A stretch of 64,000 nucleotides of DNA from Balamuthia mandrillaris (lineage: Eukaryota): contig JAVKOQ020000043.1 in assembly GCA_031835245.2 (NCBI GenBank), forward strand, positions 186,001 to 250,000. Reading direction: 5' to 3'. Below are positions 32,471 through 40,979 of the stretch, in pieces. The notes beneath the pieces were generated by a model. It did not search any database, was not told the DNA's origin, and was given only the letters and a program-made list of their open reading frames with translations. Position 1 is the first letter of the stretch. Each line of letters begins with the position of its first letter. Position numbers and translations under genes: made by a program.

Positions 32471-33151
32471 ATGGCAGGCGCTTCGGCAAAGAGGTTGGCA
32501 AAGGAGCTGAAGGAGATGGAGAAGAACCCCCTTCCTTGGGCAAAGGCTGAGCCCACAGGAGACAGTTTGTACAAATGGAAAGCCATCATCACCGGCCCTG
32601 TACGTTCTATTCCTTTTTTCTTTTTTTTTCAAGTTTAGCTCTAAAGACCCTCACCGAAAAAAAAAGTAGCGAAAATCCTTGCTTGCGCTCTTTTCTCACC
32701 CTACTTTTTTCCCCCGTTTTGTAGGAGAACACTCCTTATGATAAGGGAAGCTTCCAATTGGAACTGGAGATGCCCCCCGAGTACCCTTTCAAGGCCCCCA
32801 AAGTGAAGTTCCTCACCAAAATCTATCACCCCAACGTCAAAAGTGATGGTCAGCTCTGTTCCGAAGTGCTCAACCAGGGCTGGAGTCCTCAGCTTAAGAT
32901 CCCTGAAGGTAGAACCATCACGCACTGTTTTTTTTTCTCCTTCCATCCGAGGCTTTTGATTATTCTTGTAGGGTCTTCAACAACTCACCATTGCATTTTT
33001 TTTCCCTCTAGTGTTGCTCACCATCCGCCAAGTGTTGGTGGAGCCCAATCCCGACAATCCTCTCGAGCCCGAAATCGCCAACCAGTACAAGGAGAACCGC
33101 ACTCAGTTCAACAAGACTGCCAAAGAGTGGACGAAAAAGTATGCCAAGTAA
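32471..33151 (+). CDS. Ubiquitin-conjugating enzyme E2 (3 exons)
   Basis: [16 protein letters not shown]...[26 protein letters not shown] (active-site Cys)...[12 protein letters not shown]...[10 protein letters not shown]. Confidence 0.95.
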
Positions 33152-33340
33152 TCGCCACTGGGAGGAAGATTTGAAGAGATTAAAGAGGCGCGGGTGGTAC
33201 AACCGTTGGAGGAAGTAAGCCTTTTTTTTGCCTCCTCTTCTGCTTTTGTATCCCCTCTTTTGTTTTTTTCTCTTTACATGTAAAGACGTACAATTACTAT
33301 CATTTCTCCTTCTTTTCTGTACACACGCCCTTTCGTTCGT

Positions 33341-33635
33341 TCACACTTCTTCTCCGAAAACGACTTTGAGGGCATTCTCTGCTGCCACTATAGTGTATAA
33401 CATCCCATCACGGAAGAAACAAGTTAAAAGAGAGCACAAGAAGAAGAAGAAGATCAAGAACAAACGAGCTAATGAGTGACCTTGTTCAGCGCTTTGCCGG
33501 GAGTAACTGGTGCCTTCCGCCAAGAAGCGATCCAACAAATAAACACCTACCGTAAAAACGCGCATGTGTGGTGGTCCGCTCTCCGATATTATCCTACGAC
33601 ATTGTTGTGAGAAGAAGTTTGGTTGAAATGAAGAA

Positions 33636-33684
<49 letters not shown>

Positions 33685-34961
33685 CAGAGAGAGAGAGACA
33701 GAGAGACAGAGACAGAGAGAGAGAGAGCAGAGAGAGAAGGAAGAGAGCAGAAACCGATAGGAAGGGCCTTTGCTGCGGTTGCGTGTCTTGGCAAGGATTT
33801 TATGTTGGAGACAGGTCTTGGCATCTCGCCATTCCCTGTCGGTGATAGCTTGCATGGCCCTCGGGAATATGCACACCTCCGCGAATGTCTCCACGCAACC
33901 CATCCCTTTGTCTAACAGCAATGCTCCCACAAACGCTAAAAAGTTGTTGTTTGTTTGTTAAAGAATGAAAGATAAAAAGAGAGCAAAAATAAAAAAAACC
34001 TTCAAAACAATCGGCAAGCATGTTGGTATTGGCACGAGGAAGAAAGGTTTGGGCAGGAAAGAAGCGAAGGTAGTTGGCAAAGCCAAGCGACTCGGCAATG
34101 CCTGATAGAGCGCTGTTGCTCACCAACATACTTCGCAGTAACTCCAGGTAGAGAAGATACCACTTAATGTTAGGAAAAAGAGAAGCACGAAAGAGTGGGT
34201 AAACGTACAGTAAGTTCTCCTTCTTGAAGAAAAGGGAAAGTAAAATAGAGATGACGACTGGTAACGAACTGAAGGATGGCGTCTCCCAAGAACTCCAACC
34301 GCTGATTGTTGCCAATCCCTAAAATGTCCATTCCGTTGGAAAAAGAGGGATGGGTGAAGGCGCGCACGAGTAGCCTAATGTGACGGAAGACGATGCCTAA
34401 AGATTGCTCCAACTCAGTGAAGCGTTTGATGATAGGAGAGCGTAAGATCTCTTCGCGGTCGGTGGGAAAGGGGGTTTGTAGAGGGTGGCGAGGACAACGC
34501 AACCATAGCTGTCGAAACTTTTTCTCCTCTGGGTCGTTGCCAGGAAAGAGCTGTTCAGCAAAAAGTCTGCAACAAGTGTCTAATCCTTGATCCACATATA
34601 CTGCTCCTGTTACAGTTATTGTTTTTGAATTAGGGAAAAAAAAAAAAAAAGACAACGAGAAGAGAATCAGAAGAGAGGAAGGGAGAATATGGAGAACAAG
34701 CGAAAGAACAAGAGATTACCAAGTAAAGACTCGAAACAATCCGCAATCATGTAACGGCGTACCAAGCCTTCTTGAAGGAGGTCTTCGCTGTAGCCGTAGA
34801 GAATGTAGCTATCAAGATTAAGATTGCTAGCAATATGGGCTAAAAACTTATTGTTCACCATGCTCGAACGCATTATTGTAAGATCTCCTTCTTTATGCTC
34901 CGGAAGCTATCATAATGAACACAGAAAGTCAATTTGTGATTGGAGAAACCACAAAGAACGA

Positions 34962-34996
<35 letters not shown>

Positions 34997-35799
34997 ACCT
35001 GACAAAATAAGCTAAAGCTACAAATAAATTCCAGGATGGCATCGCCCAAGAATTCCAATCGCTGGTTGTGTATGATGCCGACAGGCATGAATGGACCAAC
35101 ATTTTTCTTCTGTTCCGTCCCATCCAGAATTGCATTCTCCAGCGTTTTCGCCATATGAAATGTGCTATTATGTCGTCCTGTGATATCATTATCAGTACTT
35201 TGGCACATGTGTGGCACAAGGCAAGAAACGAGAAACCAGGAAAAAAATAAGAGAAGAGAAGAATAAAAAGCAAGATAAGAACCTTTGTAGGTTCTTCCGC
35301 TTTTGCAAGTTGCAGAGTAGGAAGGCCCCGACGGCCGATAGATATGGTAGAGTCTATGTGGCACTTTACCGCAACTTGAACAAATGCGATAGTAGATGTG
35401 TTCCAGTGCTGCAGCATACAGTGCAAAAACTTCAAGATAAGAAACATGAGTGAACACCTATTTTGAGTGGAATGTTATTTGTAAAAGCTCGAGAAAAAGA
35501 AAGGAGAAGAAAAAGTCATTAGAAGGAGAATGGCACCTGTTCAAGTAATTGCTTGTTGCGAAAGGTTATATTGATGCTTTTCTCGAAGCGAGACAACGTT
35601 GCAAATAGACGAGTATGATGGATAACAGCAGGCATCAACGCTCCTGCTTTGCAAATGTCCACCTTTAGCGGTGATACAGTGCAGAGTTCGGGTACTAAGT
35701 ACATCGCGTTGGAGCGATCTTTCCGAAACACTTCCAATACGCTCTCTAAGAGGAAAAATTTAGCTACGTTCTAAAAACAATAAGCGAATAATCGAGGGG

Positions 35800-35851
<52 letters not shown>

Positions 35852-36122
35852 CTGGAGGCATAGGGGAAAGGGCGCCTGGCCCAGGGAGAAGCCCATGCGT
35901 TGAGGTCAGGAGGAGAGCGGACGAAGTGACGGTAGTTAACTTCGTTATTGTTGCTGCCACTGCCCGTTCCATAACTGGAGGTAGTAACTCTTTTACGCAA
36001 TGGGCATGGCGCTGTGTTGTAAATCATGCCAGTTTCAGTTGTTTGCAACTTGATATTATGTTCTCGTTCGAAGTAGTCGTAGAAGTTTGATTGCTGCAAT
36101 AAATGAATTATTTATTGTTAGA

Positions 36123-36159
<37 letters not shown>

Positions 36160-37886
36160 ATACAAAGTGAGAGGAAAAAAACTAGAGAAAAGAGACAAAC
36201 CTCATCGTTACTATCATTAGAGTAATAATAGGTATTTGTTGGATTTAAAGTAGGATTAAATCCGTCAATGCGAAAAGCAACATGAAAAGTACAATATTCC
36301 GTGGTAGCGATGTGGTTCCTCAGCCGCGAGCGAAGCATATCTTGCCAGTACCATCGTGGGTTTGCCTGCTGCTGATTATGTTTTATAGGGGGCTGAAGAG
36401 GAGGTTGAAGGTGAGAGAAAGAAGAATGAAGTGGCCATTGAGCTACCAGTTGGGCGTCTCGTGGATCGGTTGATGCTACATTAGTAGAAGAAAGGGCCGA
36501 TGGTCCTCCTTCCTCTGTTATCATTGCTTCATTGGTCCATCTTTGCAGCAGCTCTTCTGCATTGATGGACGTATCGCAAATGAGTTGACACACAATCGTT
36601 ATAGGTAACTCCTCCATTCGATTCTTCTTCATTGTCTCTCTTTGTTCTGCTACGTTGTTGTTGTCGTTGATGGAGAGTGCTACAAAGCGAGGACATATGT
36701 GAAAACGACGGCAGCCGTTAACTCGCCTCCTGCTAGAGTCATAGTGAGTGGTGGGACCAAGCCACTGCCAGTCGTCCACTTCCAGCAACGTCCCAAATAG
36801 GTACTCGTGAAACCATTCCATTGCCTTCAGGTGCGCCCACTCCATTGCAGCTTGTTCGTCCGTTTCTTCTTCCTTTCCTTCTTCTTCTCCTTTTATCTTT
36901 TTGTCTTTTTCGTTTGCGTTTGTTTCACCATCCAGCTCTCCTTCTTCTTTGATACCTTCTTTTTGGTCTCTTGTAGCTACAGAATTCGCTGGCGAAGAGG
37001 AAGAGGAAGAGGAAGAGGAAGAGGAAGAGGAAGAGGAAGAGGAAGAGGAAGAGGAAGAGGAAGAGGAAGAGGAAGAAGGTGGAATGAAGAAGGAAGGCAT
37101 GGGGCAAGGCGTGAGGGTAGCACGCCAGGGCTTGGCCTCCACTCTCAGGGTTGCAGGTGGCAGCCTCGGTGGGAGCTGCACATGAGAGAGCAAGTAGAAC
37201 CCCTCAAAGCCATAGTCCTCCCCTTCATAGCGCAGCACCGAACGTTCCCCCATAGGAGGCCACCAGTGGTTGCTGCTGTTGTCGCCCAAAGAAGAAGAAG
37301 AAGAACAAGAACAAGAAGAAGAACAAGAAGAAGAAGAAGAAGAAGAAGAACAAGGTACTTCTGTTCCCTCTTGATCTTCGAGCAACGCTGATCCCTCAGA
37401 CGGTCCTTTGGGTGAGTACTTTGCTCCTTCTTCTCCTTCTTCCTCATTTTCATCGTGTTGCGTGGCGGGGCAGATGCGCAGCAAGTACGGGTAGAGACGA
37501 GAGGGACGGCACTGCCGCAAGGGAAGGGCCTCCTCTTCCTCCTCGCCGGGAAACAGCACAAGGGAGGCCTGCTCGTGGATACCACCTATCCGTTTCGTGT
37601 GTCCACGCTTTGTTGTTGTTGTTGTTGTTGTTGAGGCGATGGAAGCGGTGGTGGTGGAGGTGGTGCGGCAATGGTCTTTTTCCTCCTTTTCATCTTTCTC
37701 CTTTCGACCGTCCCTTCTTTCCCTGGAGGCAGGGTAACGGTTTCCAGCAGCACGAGAAGAAGAAGTAGAGGAGACGTCTCGGTATTCTCCTAAACGTGGC
37801 CGCTTGGTGGAACTTCCACCTCCGCCGCCTTCCTCCCGCCTGGCGCCAGGGCCCTTGCTGCGCCGTTGCTCTTCTCTACGTTTCAT
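33341..37886 (-). CDS. DROSHA: Drosha-like class 2 ribonuclease III (central domain, PAZ-like segment, RIIIa, RIIIb, dsRBD; no helicase); multi-exon
   Basis: Two RNase III signatures, HNQRLEFLGDAILEF (~35030-35070) and NNQRLEFLGDAILQF (~34270-34310), each with ADCFE. Inter-domain linker CPRHPLQ...TDREEILRSPIIKRFTELEQSLGIVFRHIRLLVRAFT. C-terminal dsRBD WRDAKTCLQ...SGPPHMRVFTVGVY...SAEQVAAENAL. Upstream motifs FPGEE..CRP, FEGFYLLSH and CRRFHICPRF match the animal Drosha central domain as I recall it. Confidence 0.88.
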
Positions 37887-38242
37887 TCTTCTTTTTCTGC
37901 TACACTTTTGCTACACTTGTTTTTTTGCCTTTCCACTTTTGGAGTTCGATGACGTCATGCGGGTGGAAACTTCAGATGTCGACAAAAATAAGAGCAAACG
38001 GCGCGAGGAGGCACCACCCAACCACCACGGCATCTTTGGGCAGTCCGCCCAAAGCCCCCCATACAGCCCACCTGTGAGCAAGGACGGAGTCGCTGCTAAG
38101 GCGGCGCAAAGATCATAAGATCTAAGGACAACGAAAAAAGGAAAAAATTCAAAATTCGCCGCCTTAGAGTCGCTGCTTGCTGAAAAGATAGAAAAAAAAA
38201 AAAGCAAATGCAATGAATGGTGTTTTTTTTTATATTCACAAG

Positions 38243-40312
38243 TTAAAATAAGTCGCTGGAACGAAGTGCCCTGCGGTGAAGAAAGCAGAGACAACGTCAG
38301 AAAAACGCAAAGGAAGGAAAAAGAAAAGAAACAGAAACAGAAACAGAAACAAAAACAAAAACAAACCTGGGAGCGGTCGAAGTGGTGGCGTCAAGAATGG
38401 CAATCGCCCATGCACGCTCGAATCCCAACTCGTGCAAAAATTCGCCCGCTGACTTTGGTCGATGCTGGGCCAGTGCCTCCTCCGCCAAACTTTTTAGCTT
38501 CGGATAATTTTTCCTGTTGGTTGAACATGCAATGGAAAAACAAGAATGAGAAGAAAGGCAGAAGCAAGAAGAAAGAAGACATACAAGAAAGTGATAAGGT
38601 ATTCTTTGGTGTCGATGCCACAGGAAATACGAATGTAATGGCAGGCATCGAACGTCCAAAGGATGTTTCTGGTATGAAACAGCTTTCGTCGCGCCATTTC
38701 CTTCCACAGCGGAAGCCCGAATGAGTTGGAACAAAAGTTGAGAGCCGTCCAGGCGTAGCACCACAACAGCTTCAACCGTTTCTTGGGCGAGGTGATGCCC
38801 AACAACTTGTTCACAATGGTTGGTTTGGTGATAGGAACCAATGTTGGAGTGATGGTCGTGTTCTGCATTGGTTAATATTCGTTTCGTCAGTCATGAAACA
38901 CACAACAAATAAACAAGGACAAGAAGCGAAAGGAGGAACCTTATGGCGCAGCCTAATGCGAGAATTGTAGGCCTTATGATAACCCGCCTCAGTGGTAAAT
39001 GTTACTGCCACAAGATCTGTTTTAAAACGCATTAGACTTCTTTTCTTTGTCTTGGACGTGAGCACACAAAATGAAGAAAGGAGCGAAGAAAACCTTGAAG
39101 AAGGCTAGGAACTTTGGAGCGAATACCCTGCATGTTCTCATCGGGTATTCGAACAACACGCGAAACAGGAATGTTGCCCTTCACTTCGTACAAATGACGT
39201 ATCTCCTCCAACGGGAAGGAACGAGGTATGCCGGACAAAAACAGGCTCTCCTCGAACTTTTTGTCCTTTGCAACTTTGGCCCTTCCTGCAAAGGACCACA
39301 CGTCCGTTCCATCGATGCTCGCGTACTTTATTCTTGGATTCTGGCATCTGTCATTCATTGTCTCGTTGAGCATTCAAAAGTTGCTGGCAGGAAAACAGAT
39401 AGAGCAGAAGAGAAGCAATAAAGAGATAAAAGGAAGAGAAAAAAAGGCACCTGGAAATGGTGGAGGTCCAGTTTTGGGCAAGCAATACACGTCCCTCATA
39501 CAGCTTCTTCCAAGTGCATGTCCTAACGTGCAAGAAAGAAAGAGATGAGAGGAGAGAAAGAAAAGAATGGACGAAATGTTTGGTATGCACAAACCCATCC
39601 ACAAACAATACGTCCAAATGGTCGATGATGAGAGGGTCCAGAGCAGAAGGAAACTCTGCAATGAACTGAGCTTTGCAGAGGTATCTGTCCTGCGTATAAC
39701 GGTACCATTCCTTACATACACTCTCACACCTGCACCGCAAATAAGCACGATAAGAACTGGGACAAATAGAAGGAGGAAAAAGAAGAAAAAGCACAAAGAA
39801 GGAAGGAAGGAACAAACAAGAGCGATAGAAAGCAGAAAAAGCACGAAAGAGGACGAAAGAAGCAAAAAACAAAAAAGAAAGAACAAGAAAGACGGATGAA
39901 ACAGGGTACAGTAGTAAGGGAGAGACCTGAGCAACGTTCTCCAATCGCAGAAAGAAAAGATGTGCAGCTTCAACTCGGGAGAAAGCAGAGCAAAGAGGCC
40001 TTGCTGAAGGCTGTAGTGCAGCCTGGGGCTTCTGATGAAGGAGGCGGAGGGGGAGGAGGACGGAGAGCACTTGTTGCTCTTGCTACGTCGGTGCTGCTTC
40101 TTCTTCTTGTGGCCCTTTCGTTTATGCTTGCCTTGAGTTTGGGGTTGTACCTGCTGTTGCACGGTGAAAGCAGAAGCAGCGGTGGAAGTGGTGGTGGCGG
40201 TTATGCCAGAGCGGTAGGCTCGCTCGTCCTCATCGTTGTTGTTGTTGTCGTGGCTGTGAAGATGGATAGCACGAAGAAAGTGGTTTTGAAGGTGATGAGA
40301 TTCTTGTTCCAT
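38243..40312 (-). CDS. F-box protein with a putative RRM-like central domain; multi-exon
   Basis: F-box LLSPELKLHIFSFCDWRTLL/RCESVCKEWY; later ESLFLSGIPRSFPLEEIRHLY...LVAVTFTTEAGYHKA resembles RNP2/RNP1 spacing. 3' exons traced to a stop at 38243. Confidence 0.65.
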
Positions 40313-40979
40313 GTCACACTGCCGACCAAAGTCACACAAGCGGATGTTTGTTGATGTGGTTGTTTGTTTTGTTTTAAAAACAGGCCAAGTAGTAGTGGTG
40401 AGAGGTTGAAAGAGGGTCGAAAAAAAAAACGCAAGCAAAATGGGGTTCTCTCCTTCTCTTTCCTGGCAACTTGCTTTCCAAAACCAAATGACTGCTTTGC
40501 CTTCTTATTCAAAAAAACAAAAAAATTACAAATAGGAGAAAAAAAAACTCCTCTGCTACGTACAAAAAAAGGGCAGAAGAAGGGAAGAGAGGGGGAAGTC
40601 GCCCCAGCACCCACCCGTTTCTCTTTTTCTCTCACCACAGCACTGTGCAATATTATTCGCCGAGAAGGAGAGAGTCTCTCTCTCGCTCTTGTCGGCTTGG
40701 ACCTGGGGGGATGATGGTGGTGTTCTATTTTTTTCCATCTCAGCGAAATTTTGCGGGTAGGTTATTGGAACGATTATTTTTGGTAGGGTTATGCCGTTAC
40801 AAACCCTAACCTTCATTTCAGTAGATGTCGACGGAAATGAGCATGGATATATATGATTTCGTATTGGAGAATACAGATCGATTGGGTGATCAGTAAGCGT
40901 CACTGAAAAAAAACACAACGCCGATTTTAAAAAAAAATAAACAGAAACGAAAAGAAAGGAGAAGAGAACACACGAAGCA

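What the first reader, a model, noticed from the sequence alone, without database searches (positions are those of the whole stretch)
35690..36330. Drosha-like protein retains a Dicer-type PAZ segment: a possible Dicer-Drosha intermediate
Seen in sequence: between the Drosha-type central domain and the connector, the exons encode ...FRIDGFNPTLNPTNTYY.../QQSNFYDYFEREHNIKLQTTETGMI.../...MYLVPELCTVSPL. 'F.DYF...HNIKL' and 'YLVPELC' are hallmark motifs of Dicer/Argonaute PAZ domains. Established knowledge: animal Drosha has only a degenerate PAZ-like remnant and is thought to derive from a Dicer. Inference: this enzyme may combine Drosha's RNase III module with a functional 3'-overhang-binding PAZ. 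It could then measure from RNA ends or perform both cropping and dicing, which would be an undescribed architecture.
Basis: partly seen in the sequence, partly recalled or inferred. Interest (0 to 1): 0.85.

Follow-up and report, generated by a model that had tools for sequence, protein, structure and literature searches.

The report
Non-animal Drosha keeps full PAZ domain
This gene from a non-animal eukaryote, likely an amoeba, encodes a relative of the animal microRNA-cutting enzyme Drosha that still carries the RNA-end-gripping PAZ module animal Drosha lacks, so it likely measures its cuts from an RNA end as Dicer does and likely shows what Drosha looked like before animals remodelled it.

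Summary
Observation confirmed. An 11-exon minus-strand gene (33339-37886, predicted 1185 aa, no stop) encodes Drosha's platform, a PAZ domain over exons 1-3, connector, two intact RNase III domains with the Drosha-type long RIIIDa insertion, and a dsRBD. A PAZ profile built from other proteins scores the spliced model 25.9 bits (best of 1000 shuffles 10.3; animal Droshas at most 5.0). It is not alone: a Nematostelium gracile protein and metagenomic proteins form a clade with it (98/93) next to animal Drosha (93/73, unresolved). The predicted Nematostelium structure matches Drosha overall (Z 39) and human PIWI PAZ locally (Z 16.9, 1.8 A). Animal Droshas lack the pocket module and carry the belt, which these proteins appear to lack. 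Corrections: this is a living lineage with the likely ancestral state, not an intermediate; the PAZ is closer to PIWI than to Dicer PAZ; this copy has lost the QP motif. RNA binding, dicing and the PAZ splice joints are not shown. Partial precedents: oomycete DCL2, Plasmodiophora PbDRL.

The parts
33339..37886 (-). Drosha-lineage RNase III gene, 11 predicted exons (37886-36201, 36093-35853, 35745-35537, 35457-35283, 35177-34999, 34906-34720, 34606-34209, 34141-34000, 33935-33755, 33593-33481, 33387-33339), 1185 aa
   Evidence: All 10 introns GT-AG, no internal stop. Another strain's contigs: 21 synonymous and 5 non-synonymous of 26 exonic among 40 listed differences (47 more not shown); 7 of 7 listed indels inside the gene body are intronic.
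37557..37886 (-). Charged, low-complexity N-terminus (aa 1-110); no helicase or DUF283
   Evidence: Sequence; Pfam on exon 1 gives only a low-complexity SR-25 match; the upstream gene is a separate transcript.
36651..37556 (-). Drosha-type platform (about aa 111-412) with low-complexity insertions
   Evidence: 43.1 bits, E 3.6e-11 on a profile from 26 animal Droshas; short PAZ Dicers 6.8 or less; hits only Drosha chains in the PDB, weakly (E 0.03).
36201..36347 (-). PAZ, first part (aa 514-562): Y531, F538-R539, Y553
35853..36093 (-). Exon 2: PAZ pocket helix (F566, Y569, F570, H574), strand with TG in place of QP (583-584), then a Gly/Pro-rich insert where animal Drosha has the belt
   Evidence: RNA reads cover it at depth 1.3-1.6 without listed joints.
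35672..35745 (-). PAZ last strand (YLVPELC, aa 658-664)
   Evidence: Pfam PAZ positions 84-122, 13.9 bits; human Dicer 1028-1066.
35585..35671 (-). Connector helix (about aa 668-696), Drosha-like
   Evidence: Human Drosha chains, E 0.013.
34578..35584 (-). RNase IIIa with a 95-aa insertion in the place of Drosha's bump/wedge insertion (about 35445-35071); catalytic motifs E-x-x-G-D and D-x-x-E intact
33900..34430 (-). RNase IIIb, both catalytic motifs intact (34310-34281 and 34015-33934)
   Evidence: best relatives are unnamed metagenomic proteins, then animal Droshas.
33365..33825 (-). C-terminal dsRBD (about aa 1110-1178)
   Evidence: Aligns with the Pfam-dsrm-bearing ends of P0001, P0003, P0006 (Pfam labels).

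Best explanation
The gene encodes a Drosha-lineage double-RNase-III enzyme with a complete PAZ domain, which likely grips a free RNA 3' end so that the enzyme would cut double-stranded RNA at a fixed distance from that end, probably giving 21-25 nt products as Dicer does. Shown here: the domain order platform-PAZ-connector-RIIIDa-RIIIDb-dsRBD in the gene model, intact catalytic motifs, Drosha-type platform and RIIIDa insertion, aromatic residues at 6 of 6 mapped PAZ RNA-contact positions, and a clade of relatives with the same build. Predicted: the full PAZ fold (folded for the Nematostelium relative, not for this protein) and the absence of the belt. Inferred: end binding, ruler length, independence from a Pasha-type partner, and the history in which Drosha's ancestor had a full PAZ, animals deleted its pocket module and inserted the belt, switching from measuring from an end to measuring from a junction.
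For: PAZ profile score and controls. Pocket module length 36-40 aa here, in P0173, P0010 and 5 short Dicers, against 12-45 (median 18) in 44 of 47 animal Droshas (anchors differ by about 3 residues). In one search, 3 of 120 listed proteins carry Pfam PAZ and lack PF26050, the other 117 the reverse. Model of P0173: PAZ pLDDT 81-92, insert 513-539 unstructured; residues 424-556 superimpose on human Hiwi1 PAZ at Z 16.9, 1.8 A over 104 residues, the whole on Drosha at Z 38-39 and on dicing-state Dicer at Z 33. Mapped by alignment to the PIWI RNA-contact columns described in PMC8657434 (passages), the window has Y531, F538, Y553, Y569, F570, H574. Insert composition unlike a coiled coil: Gly+Pro 0.14 against 0.05, helix formers 0.32 against 0.62. 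Functional precedent: PbDRL, Drosha-like with a bump helix, turns long dsRNA into mainly 21-nt RNA without a detected partner (PMC13547706 section 2.4).
Against: No binding or cleavage data. This copy is diverged: QP, invariant in 13 of 13 rows of alignment A4, is TG here, and two contact tyrosines are phenylalanine. The bump-type insertion is retained; in human Drosha it lines the RNA path near the basal junction and, as I recall, limits the stem to about 11 bp, which could keep a 22-bp duplex from reaching the pocket. The confident PAZ fold came from an alignment chosen for PAZ-bearing rows; the animal-rich alignment gave pLDDT under 50 and helices there. An animal-rich MAFFT run lays the pocket helix on the first belt helix instead of on a gap. 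The sister position to animal Drosha has 93/73 support only, and grouping with all short PAZ Dicers is not rejected (p-AU 0.175). Nematostelium also has a short PAZ Dicer, so dicing may be that paralog's job. PbDRL's own PAZ status is unknown to me. PAZ splice joints were not seen.
Confidence: 0.5

Rival explanations
1. End-anchored cropping: the bump/wedge insertion still sets a short, Drosha-like cut near the base of a hairpin, and the PAZ grips the single-stranded 3' end of the flank in place of the belt; the short PAZ Dicer paralog does the dicing.
For: 95-aa RIIIDa insertion retained; PAZ closest to PIWI PAZ, which binds guide 3' ends (PMC8657434); in human Drosha the 3' strand leaves past the PAZ-like domain (PMC11100773 passages); two paralog classes in Nematostelium, the Drosha-type one with an Arg/Ser-rich N-terminus.
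Against: No belt detected to clamp a junction; Pasha/DGCR8 was not found in free-living amoebae in a review (PMC13315211 passages); PbDRL dices despite its bump helix.
Confidence: 0.25
2. The PAZ is structurally present but its pocket is decaying in this species and no longer binds RNA ends; the enzyme positions itself by other means.
For: 25.9 bits against 52.0 for P0173 and 32.5 for P0010; QP lost; shortened pocket modules in other non-animal Drosha-like proteins (28 aa in P0040, 25 aa in Phytophthora P0069) and none in P0217 or P0049 show repeated decay.
Against: Aromatic residues kept at 6 of 6 mapped positions; full module length.
Confidence: 0.12
3. The full PAZ is a secondary graft into an amoebozoan Drosha from a PIWI gene or from the short Dicer paralog, not an ancestral state.
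For: P0173 PAZ hits PIWI at E 1e-8 and no Dicer at E up to 10; deep branches unresolved.
Against: The short Dicers' PAZ is also PIWI-like, so this looks like a shared old signature; animal Droshas keep the flanking R-[IV]-D and P-x-x-x-H strands collinear with these proteins; PAZ remnants sit in the same place in a separate non-animal lineage (P0040). No PAZ tree with PIWI rows could be built.
Confidence: 0.08
4. The gene model is wrong: exon 2 is skipped or intronic, so the protein lacks the pocket.
For: No joint read listed; in-frame alternative acceptors at 35770 and 35743 would permit skipping.
Against: Exon 2 is covered by RNA reads at the depth of other exons and has 6 substitutions and no gap in another strain, while neighbouring introns have indels; the PAZ score rises from 2.3 and 4.7 to 21.6 bits when exons 1 and 2 are joined; transcript-derived P0173 has the same segment.
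Confidence: 0.05

Closest known systems
Animal Drosha (human, PDB 5B16, 6V5B, 9ASM)
   Same: Platform type, connector, long RIIIDa insertion, tandem RNase III, C-terminal dsRBD, no helicase; top sequence and fold match.
   Different: Animal Drosha lacks the PAZ pocket module and has the belt hairpin; here the module is present and the belt is not detected. RIIIDa second motif is D-x-x-E here and N-x-x-E in most animal rows.
Plasmodiophora brassicae PbDRL (PMC13547706)
   Same: Non-animal Drosha-like enzyme with bump helix; reported to make 21-nt RNAs from long dsRNA.
   Different: The paper does not mention a PAZ for it (1 occurrence of PAZ in the text, about AGO; 0 in two supplement files; figures not seen) and calls the mechanism not understood. 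Its sequence was not identified among my hits.
Oomycete DCL2 (PMC4791657)
   Same: Reported as PAZ + 2 RNase III + dsrm, placed basally near Drosha; Drosha-type platform (40.0 bits) and long RIIIDa insertion.
   Different: Phytophthora oleae P0069 has no Pfam PAZ at E 0.05 and a pocket module cut to 25 aa; separate clade.
Short helicase-less PAZ Dicers of amoebae and heteroloboseans (P0035, P0064, P0072, P0084, P0068, P0106); Giardia Dicer as solved example
   Same: Platform-PAZ-connector-RIIIDa-RIIIDb(-dsRBD) without helicase; PIWI-like PAZ.
   Different: RIIIDa insertion 14-17 aa, platform 6.8 bits or less on the Drosha profile, separate branch; one occurs beside the Drosha-type gene in Nematostelium.
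PIWI PAZ domain (Hiwi1 3O7V, Hili 3O7X, Miwi 2XFM)
   Same: Best sequence and fold match of the relatives' PAZ.
   Different: Sits in an Argonaute and holds the guide's 3' end; here it sits in an RNase III.
Acanthamoeba castellanii ACA1_291000 (PMC13315211)
   Same: Amoebozoan RNase III, 40% identical to human Drosha, best hit for both Dicer and Drosha.
   Different: 805-aa annotation; no PAZ mentioned in that review (0 occurrences); not identified among my hits.

Membership tests
Drosha | Two tandem RNase III domains plus C-terminal dsRBD, no helicase | tested here: met
Drosha | Long insertion in RIIIDa (bump helix; diagnostic in PMC6206976) | tested here: met
   95 aa against 14-17 aa in 11 of 14 short Dicers that could be anchored and 66-101 aa in animal rows. 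Met as an insertion; helix geometry was not modelled for this protein and is partly low-confidence in P0173.
Drosha | Drosha-type platform / central domain | tested here: met
   43.1 bits, E 3.6e-11.
Drosha | Groups with animal Drosha in RNase III phylogeny | tested here: inconclusive
   Sister in the best tree at 93/73; alternative not rejected, p-AU 0.175; clade with 5 short Dicers of the amoebozoan group borderline rejected, p-AU 0.043. Only one helicase Dicer in the tree.
Drosha (animal type) | Belt coiled coil that clamps the basal junction | tested here: not met
   Insert is Gly/Pro-rich, unstructured in the P0173 model, not found by a belt profile (that profile also misses several divergent animal rows, so it is weak alone).
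Drosha (animal type) | PAZ reduced, without the 3'-pocket module | tested here: not met
Drosha (animal type) | Works with Pasha/DGCR8 and crops pri-miRNA | not testable with these tools
   No genome held; no biochemistry.
PAZ domain | Profile match over the whole domain | tested here: met
   Own profile 25.9 bits, hhalign 95.9%. Pfam's cut-off could be tested only on single exons and was not reached; relatives pass it (P0010 46.7 bits; P0173 labelled PF02170).
PAZ domain | PAZ fold with the alpha/beta pocket module | tested here: inconclusive
   Met for the relative P0173 (Z 16.9, 1.8 A, 104 residues) with a PAZ-rich alignment, not with an animal-rich one; the window's spliced protein was not folded.
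PAZ domain | Conserved aromatic RNA-contact residues and QP motif | tested here: inconclusive
   6 of 6 mapped positions aromatic (3 Tyr, 2 Phe, 1 His); QP replaced by TG.
PAZ domain | Binds RNA 3' ends | not testable with these tools
   Needs a binding assay.
Canonical Dicer | N-terminal helicase and DUF283 | tested here: not met
   None in exon 1; the upstream ORFs belong to a separate spliced transcript.
Canonical Dicer | Fixed-length products measured from the PAZ-held end | not testable with these tools
   Needs a cleavage assay.

The most novel reading that the evidence does not exclude
Drosha is not a late offshoot of animal Dicer but an old eukaryotic paralog that had a full, PIWI-like PAZ and could dice from RNA ends; amoebozoans keep that form, several protist lineages eroded it, and the animal line deleted the pocket module and inserted the belt to become a junction-measuring Microprocessor. 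This would also supply the missing ruler for Drosha-like enzymes such as PbDRL that make 21-nt RNAs without Dicer.
Probability: 0.45. Interest if true: 0.85.

Novelty: new variant of a known kind. Interest (0 to 1): 0.68.

Why it matters
Reviews treat lack of a PAZ pocket as the mark of Drosha and derive Drosha from a Dicer duplication near the origin of animals (PMC10328071, PMC6206976, PMC4791657; passages). A clade next to animal Drosha with the pocket module in place and no belt gives a living form on which to test how an end-measuring enzyme became a junction-measuring one, pushes the Drosha lineage outside Holozoa, and offers a mechanism for small-RNA production in amoebae that have miRNAs but no recognised Pasha.

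Tried and rejected
No genome is held, so Dicer paralogs and Pasha could not be counted in this organism. No RNA holder was listed as such; raw reads gave depth under 2 on most of the gene and no PAZ joints; X3 and X4 behave as DNA of another strain. Pfam on single exons does not reach the PAZ cut-off; exon 2 alone has no PDB hit at E 10. ESM Atlas: nothing for exon 3; one 0.75 lead for P0173 255-620, not used. First fold of P0173 with 73 rows, most of them animal Droshas, left the PAZ insert at pLDDT under 50. Acanthamoeba, Plasmodiophora and ichthyosporean proteins were not identified among the hits; those searches are word-limited or list only the top rows, and I scanned 68 of the 150 rows with Pfam and looked up names for 30 proteins. 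Tree: 3 of 56 chosen rows dropped because the motif cut failed (P0219, P0147, P0039); no plant or animal Dicers were in hand. Primary papers on the Dicer and PIWI pockets were not held, so residue mapping rests on PMC8657434. Rejected: that the upstream F-box ORFs are an N-terminal part of this gene (separate spliced contig); that Rfam miRNA hits in exon 1 are real (far below gathering score, on simple repeats). Nine literature searches returned no paper whose listing or read passages describe a Drosha-type protein with a complete PAZ in Amoebozoa; subscription papers, figures and the supplementary trees of PMC11014262 were not seen.
Full report
Gene. The finding lies in a minus-strand, intron-rich gene. 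Ten GT-AG introns of 64-161 nt give 11 exons from 37886 to 33339 and a 1185-aa frame without a stop. The model is a prediction: RNA reads were too thin to list any joint in this gene (3-5% of each run read), although six introns of the same kind were shown for the upstream gene. Contigs of another strain support the frame: of 40 listed differences (47 more not shown) 26 are exonic, 21 of them synonymous, and 7 of 7 indels inside the gene body are intronic. No genome is held.

Drosha scaffold. RIIIDb's best relatives are unnamed metagenomic proteins and then animal Droshas. A platform profile from 26 animal Droshas scores the model 43.1 bits and the short PAZ Dicers 6.8 or less. The RIIIDa insertion that PMC6206976 (passages) uses as the Drosha diagnostic is 95 aa here, 14-17 aa in 11 of 14 short Dicers that could be anchored, and 66-101 aa in animal rows, a few of which have a slipped anchor. 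Both catalytic motifs of both RNase III domains are intact. There is no helicase.

PAZ. Exon 3 hits human Dicer 1028-1066 with residues 11-49 and the Drosha connector with residues 26-68. Pfam on single exons gives only 13.9 bits. A profile from 9 other Pfam-positive PAZ domains scores the spliced model 25.9 bits over aa 518-667; the best of 1000 shuffles of the segment gets 10.3, animal Droshas at most 3.3 among 162 targets and at most 5.0 among 111 further proteins. hhalign gives 95.9% against under 0.5% for 4 of 4 animal controls. Between the R-[IV]-D strand and the next strand the model, P0173, P0010 and five short Dicers have 36-40 residues holding the pocket helix; 44 of 47 animal Droshas have 12-45, median 18 (alignment). 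After that strand animals carry the belt (PMC11100773 and PMC13049099, passages); here the insert is Gly/Pro-rich. Against this: an animal-rich alignment instead lays the pocket helix on the first belt helix, and the belt profile misses several divergent animals too.

A family. A profile search of 1.84 billion representatives and two word searches gave relatives with the same build: Nematostelium gracile P0173, metagenomic P0010/P0172 (Pfam PAZ 46.7 bits), the partial P0004, and P0001, which begins after the PAZ. In one search, 3 of 120 listed proteins carry PF02170 and lack PF26050 (name not given), and 117 the reverse. A second class, short PAZ Dicers, occurs in Nematostelium, Soliformovum, Thecamoeba, Protostelium, Pharyngomonas and Willaertia; Nematostelium has both classes. 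Other non-animal Drosha-like proteins show shortened or missing PAZ (Phytophthora P0069, P0040, P0217, P0049). In a 53-row RNase III tree the window protein, P0004, P0173, P0010 and P0001 form a clade (98/93), animal Droshas another (100/99), and the two are sisters at 93/73. Holding the window clade with all 14 short Dicer-like rows and the one fungal Dicer is not rejected (p-AU 0.175); holding it with five short Dicers of the amoebozoan group is borderline rejected (0.043). The deep order is open, and canonical Dicers are represented by one long branch.

Structure, by proxy. The spliced protein was not folded. P0173 folded with a 21-row alignment of non-animal relatives has a confident PAZ (pLDDT 81-92) and an unstructured insert; residues 424-556 superimpose on human Hiwi1 PAZ at Z 16.9, 1.8 A over 104 of 107 residues, and the whole on Drosha at Z 39.4 and 38.1 and on dicing-state mouse Dicer at Z 33.3 (Foldseek ranks nine Drosha chains first). 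With a 73-row animal-rich alignment the same stretch was under pLDDT 50, so the fold depends on the alignment. In sequence the PAZ of P0173 and of a short Dicer is closest to PIWI PAZ (E 1e-8 and 1e-12) and further from Dicer PAZ (no hit; E 1.5e-4) (profile search: PIWI 70-82 bits, Dicer PAZ cassette 58-59).

Pocket. Using the PIWI contact columns in PMC8657434 (passages) and the alignments, my mapping gives Y531, F538, Y553, Y569, F570 and H574: aromatic at 6 of 6, tyrosine at 3. The QP motif, invariant in 13 of 13 rows of A4, is TG. The pocket is plausibly kept but more diverged than in P0173 (52.0 bits).

Mechanism. Most likely (0.5) the PAZ holds a 3' end and the connector sets a Dicer-like ruler; binding, ruler length and partner independence are inferred. 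The reported activity of PbDRL, which has a bump helix and makes mainly 21-nt RNA from long dsRNA (PMC13547706, section 2.4), shows a Drosha-like scaffold can do this, but its PAZ status is unknown to me. The main rival (0.25) is cropping with the PAZ gripping a single-stranded 3' flank, since the bump-type insertion is kept (the 11-bp limit is recalled, not from a call) and a short Dicer paralog exists in Nematostelium. Decay (0.12), grafting (0.08) and a wrong gene model (0.05) follow.

Known and new. Dictyostelium DrnB lacks PAZ and has a shuffled order (PMC5056781, passages). Amoebozoan Dicers were treed without mention of PAZ in the main text (PMC11014262, passages; supplements not seen). 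Oomycete DCL2 was reported with a weak PAZ near Drosha (PMC4791657, passages). An Acanthamoeba protein was noted as best hit for both Dicer and Drosha (PMC13315211, passages). PMC6206976 leaves a pre-holozoan origin open for lack of candidates; PMC10328071 calls Drosha a metazoan Dicer duplicate (passages). Nine searches showed no description of a Drosha-type protein with a complete, PIWI-like PAZ and no belt. The scan's index had no matching note apart from one on a Naegleria Dicer-like gene.

Verdict. Real, a family rather than a one-off, a new variant of a known kind. Interest 0.68.

Noticed in passing
window 38078-38180: Intergenic stem (11-13 bp arms, z about -2.8 on both strands) just upstream of the gene. 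Its core, 38096-38140, recruits many RNA reads and contigs with different flanks on both sides, so it is a multi-copy motif elsewhere in the genome; some flanks hold C-box-like or CCAAT words, and the minus strand holds an Sm-site-like word (motif labels recalled). No Rfam match, no second copy in the window.
   Followed up: partly
window 38400-40485, minus strand: Separate upstream gene with six spliced introns shown by an RNA-type contig; weak F-box-like match.
   Followed up: partly
P0219 and P0040 (ENA proteins): Non-animal Drosha-like proteins with long insertions between platform and PAZ remnant; P0219 carries precomputed PF00076 and PF00397 (RRM and WW, names recalled), which echoes the RRM partner SRSF3 docking on human Drosha's PAZ-like domain.
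   Followed up: no
P0134 (Cavostelium apophysatum): Short Dicer-like protein fused to an N-terminal 3'-5' exonuclease domain (PF01612) and an N-terminal dsRBD.
   Followed up: no
PAZ of P0173, P0072 and relatives: The PAZ of both amoebozoan RNase III classes is closer to PIWI PAZ than to animal or plant Dicer PAZ.
   Followed up: partly
window 32471-33151, plus strand: A ubiquitin-conjugating-enzyme-like gene (recognised from its translation, not searched) converges on the RNase III gene's 3' end; other neighbours are ordinary (ankyrin, TPR, PPR, WD40, kinase).
   Followed up: no
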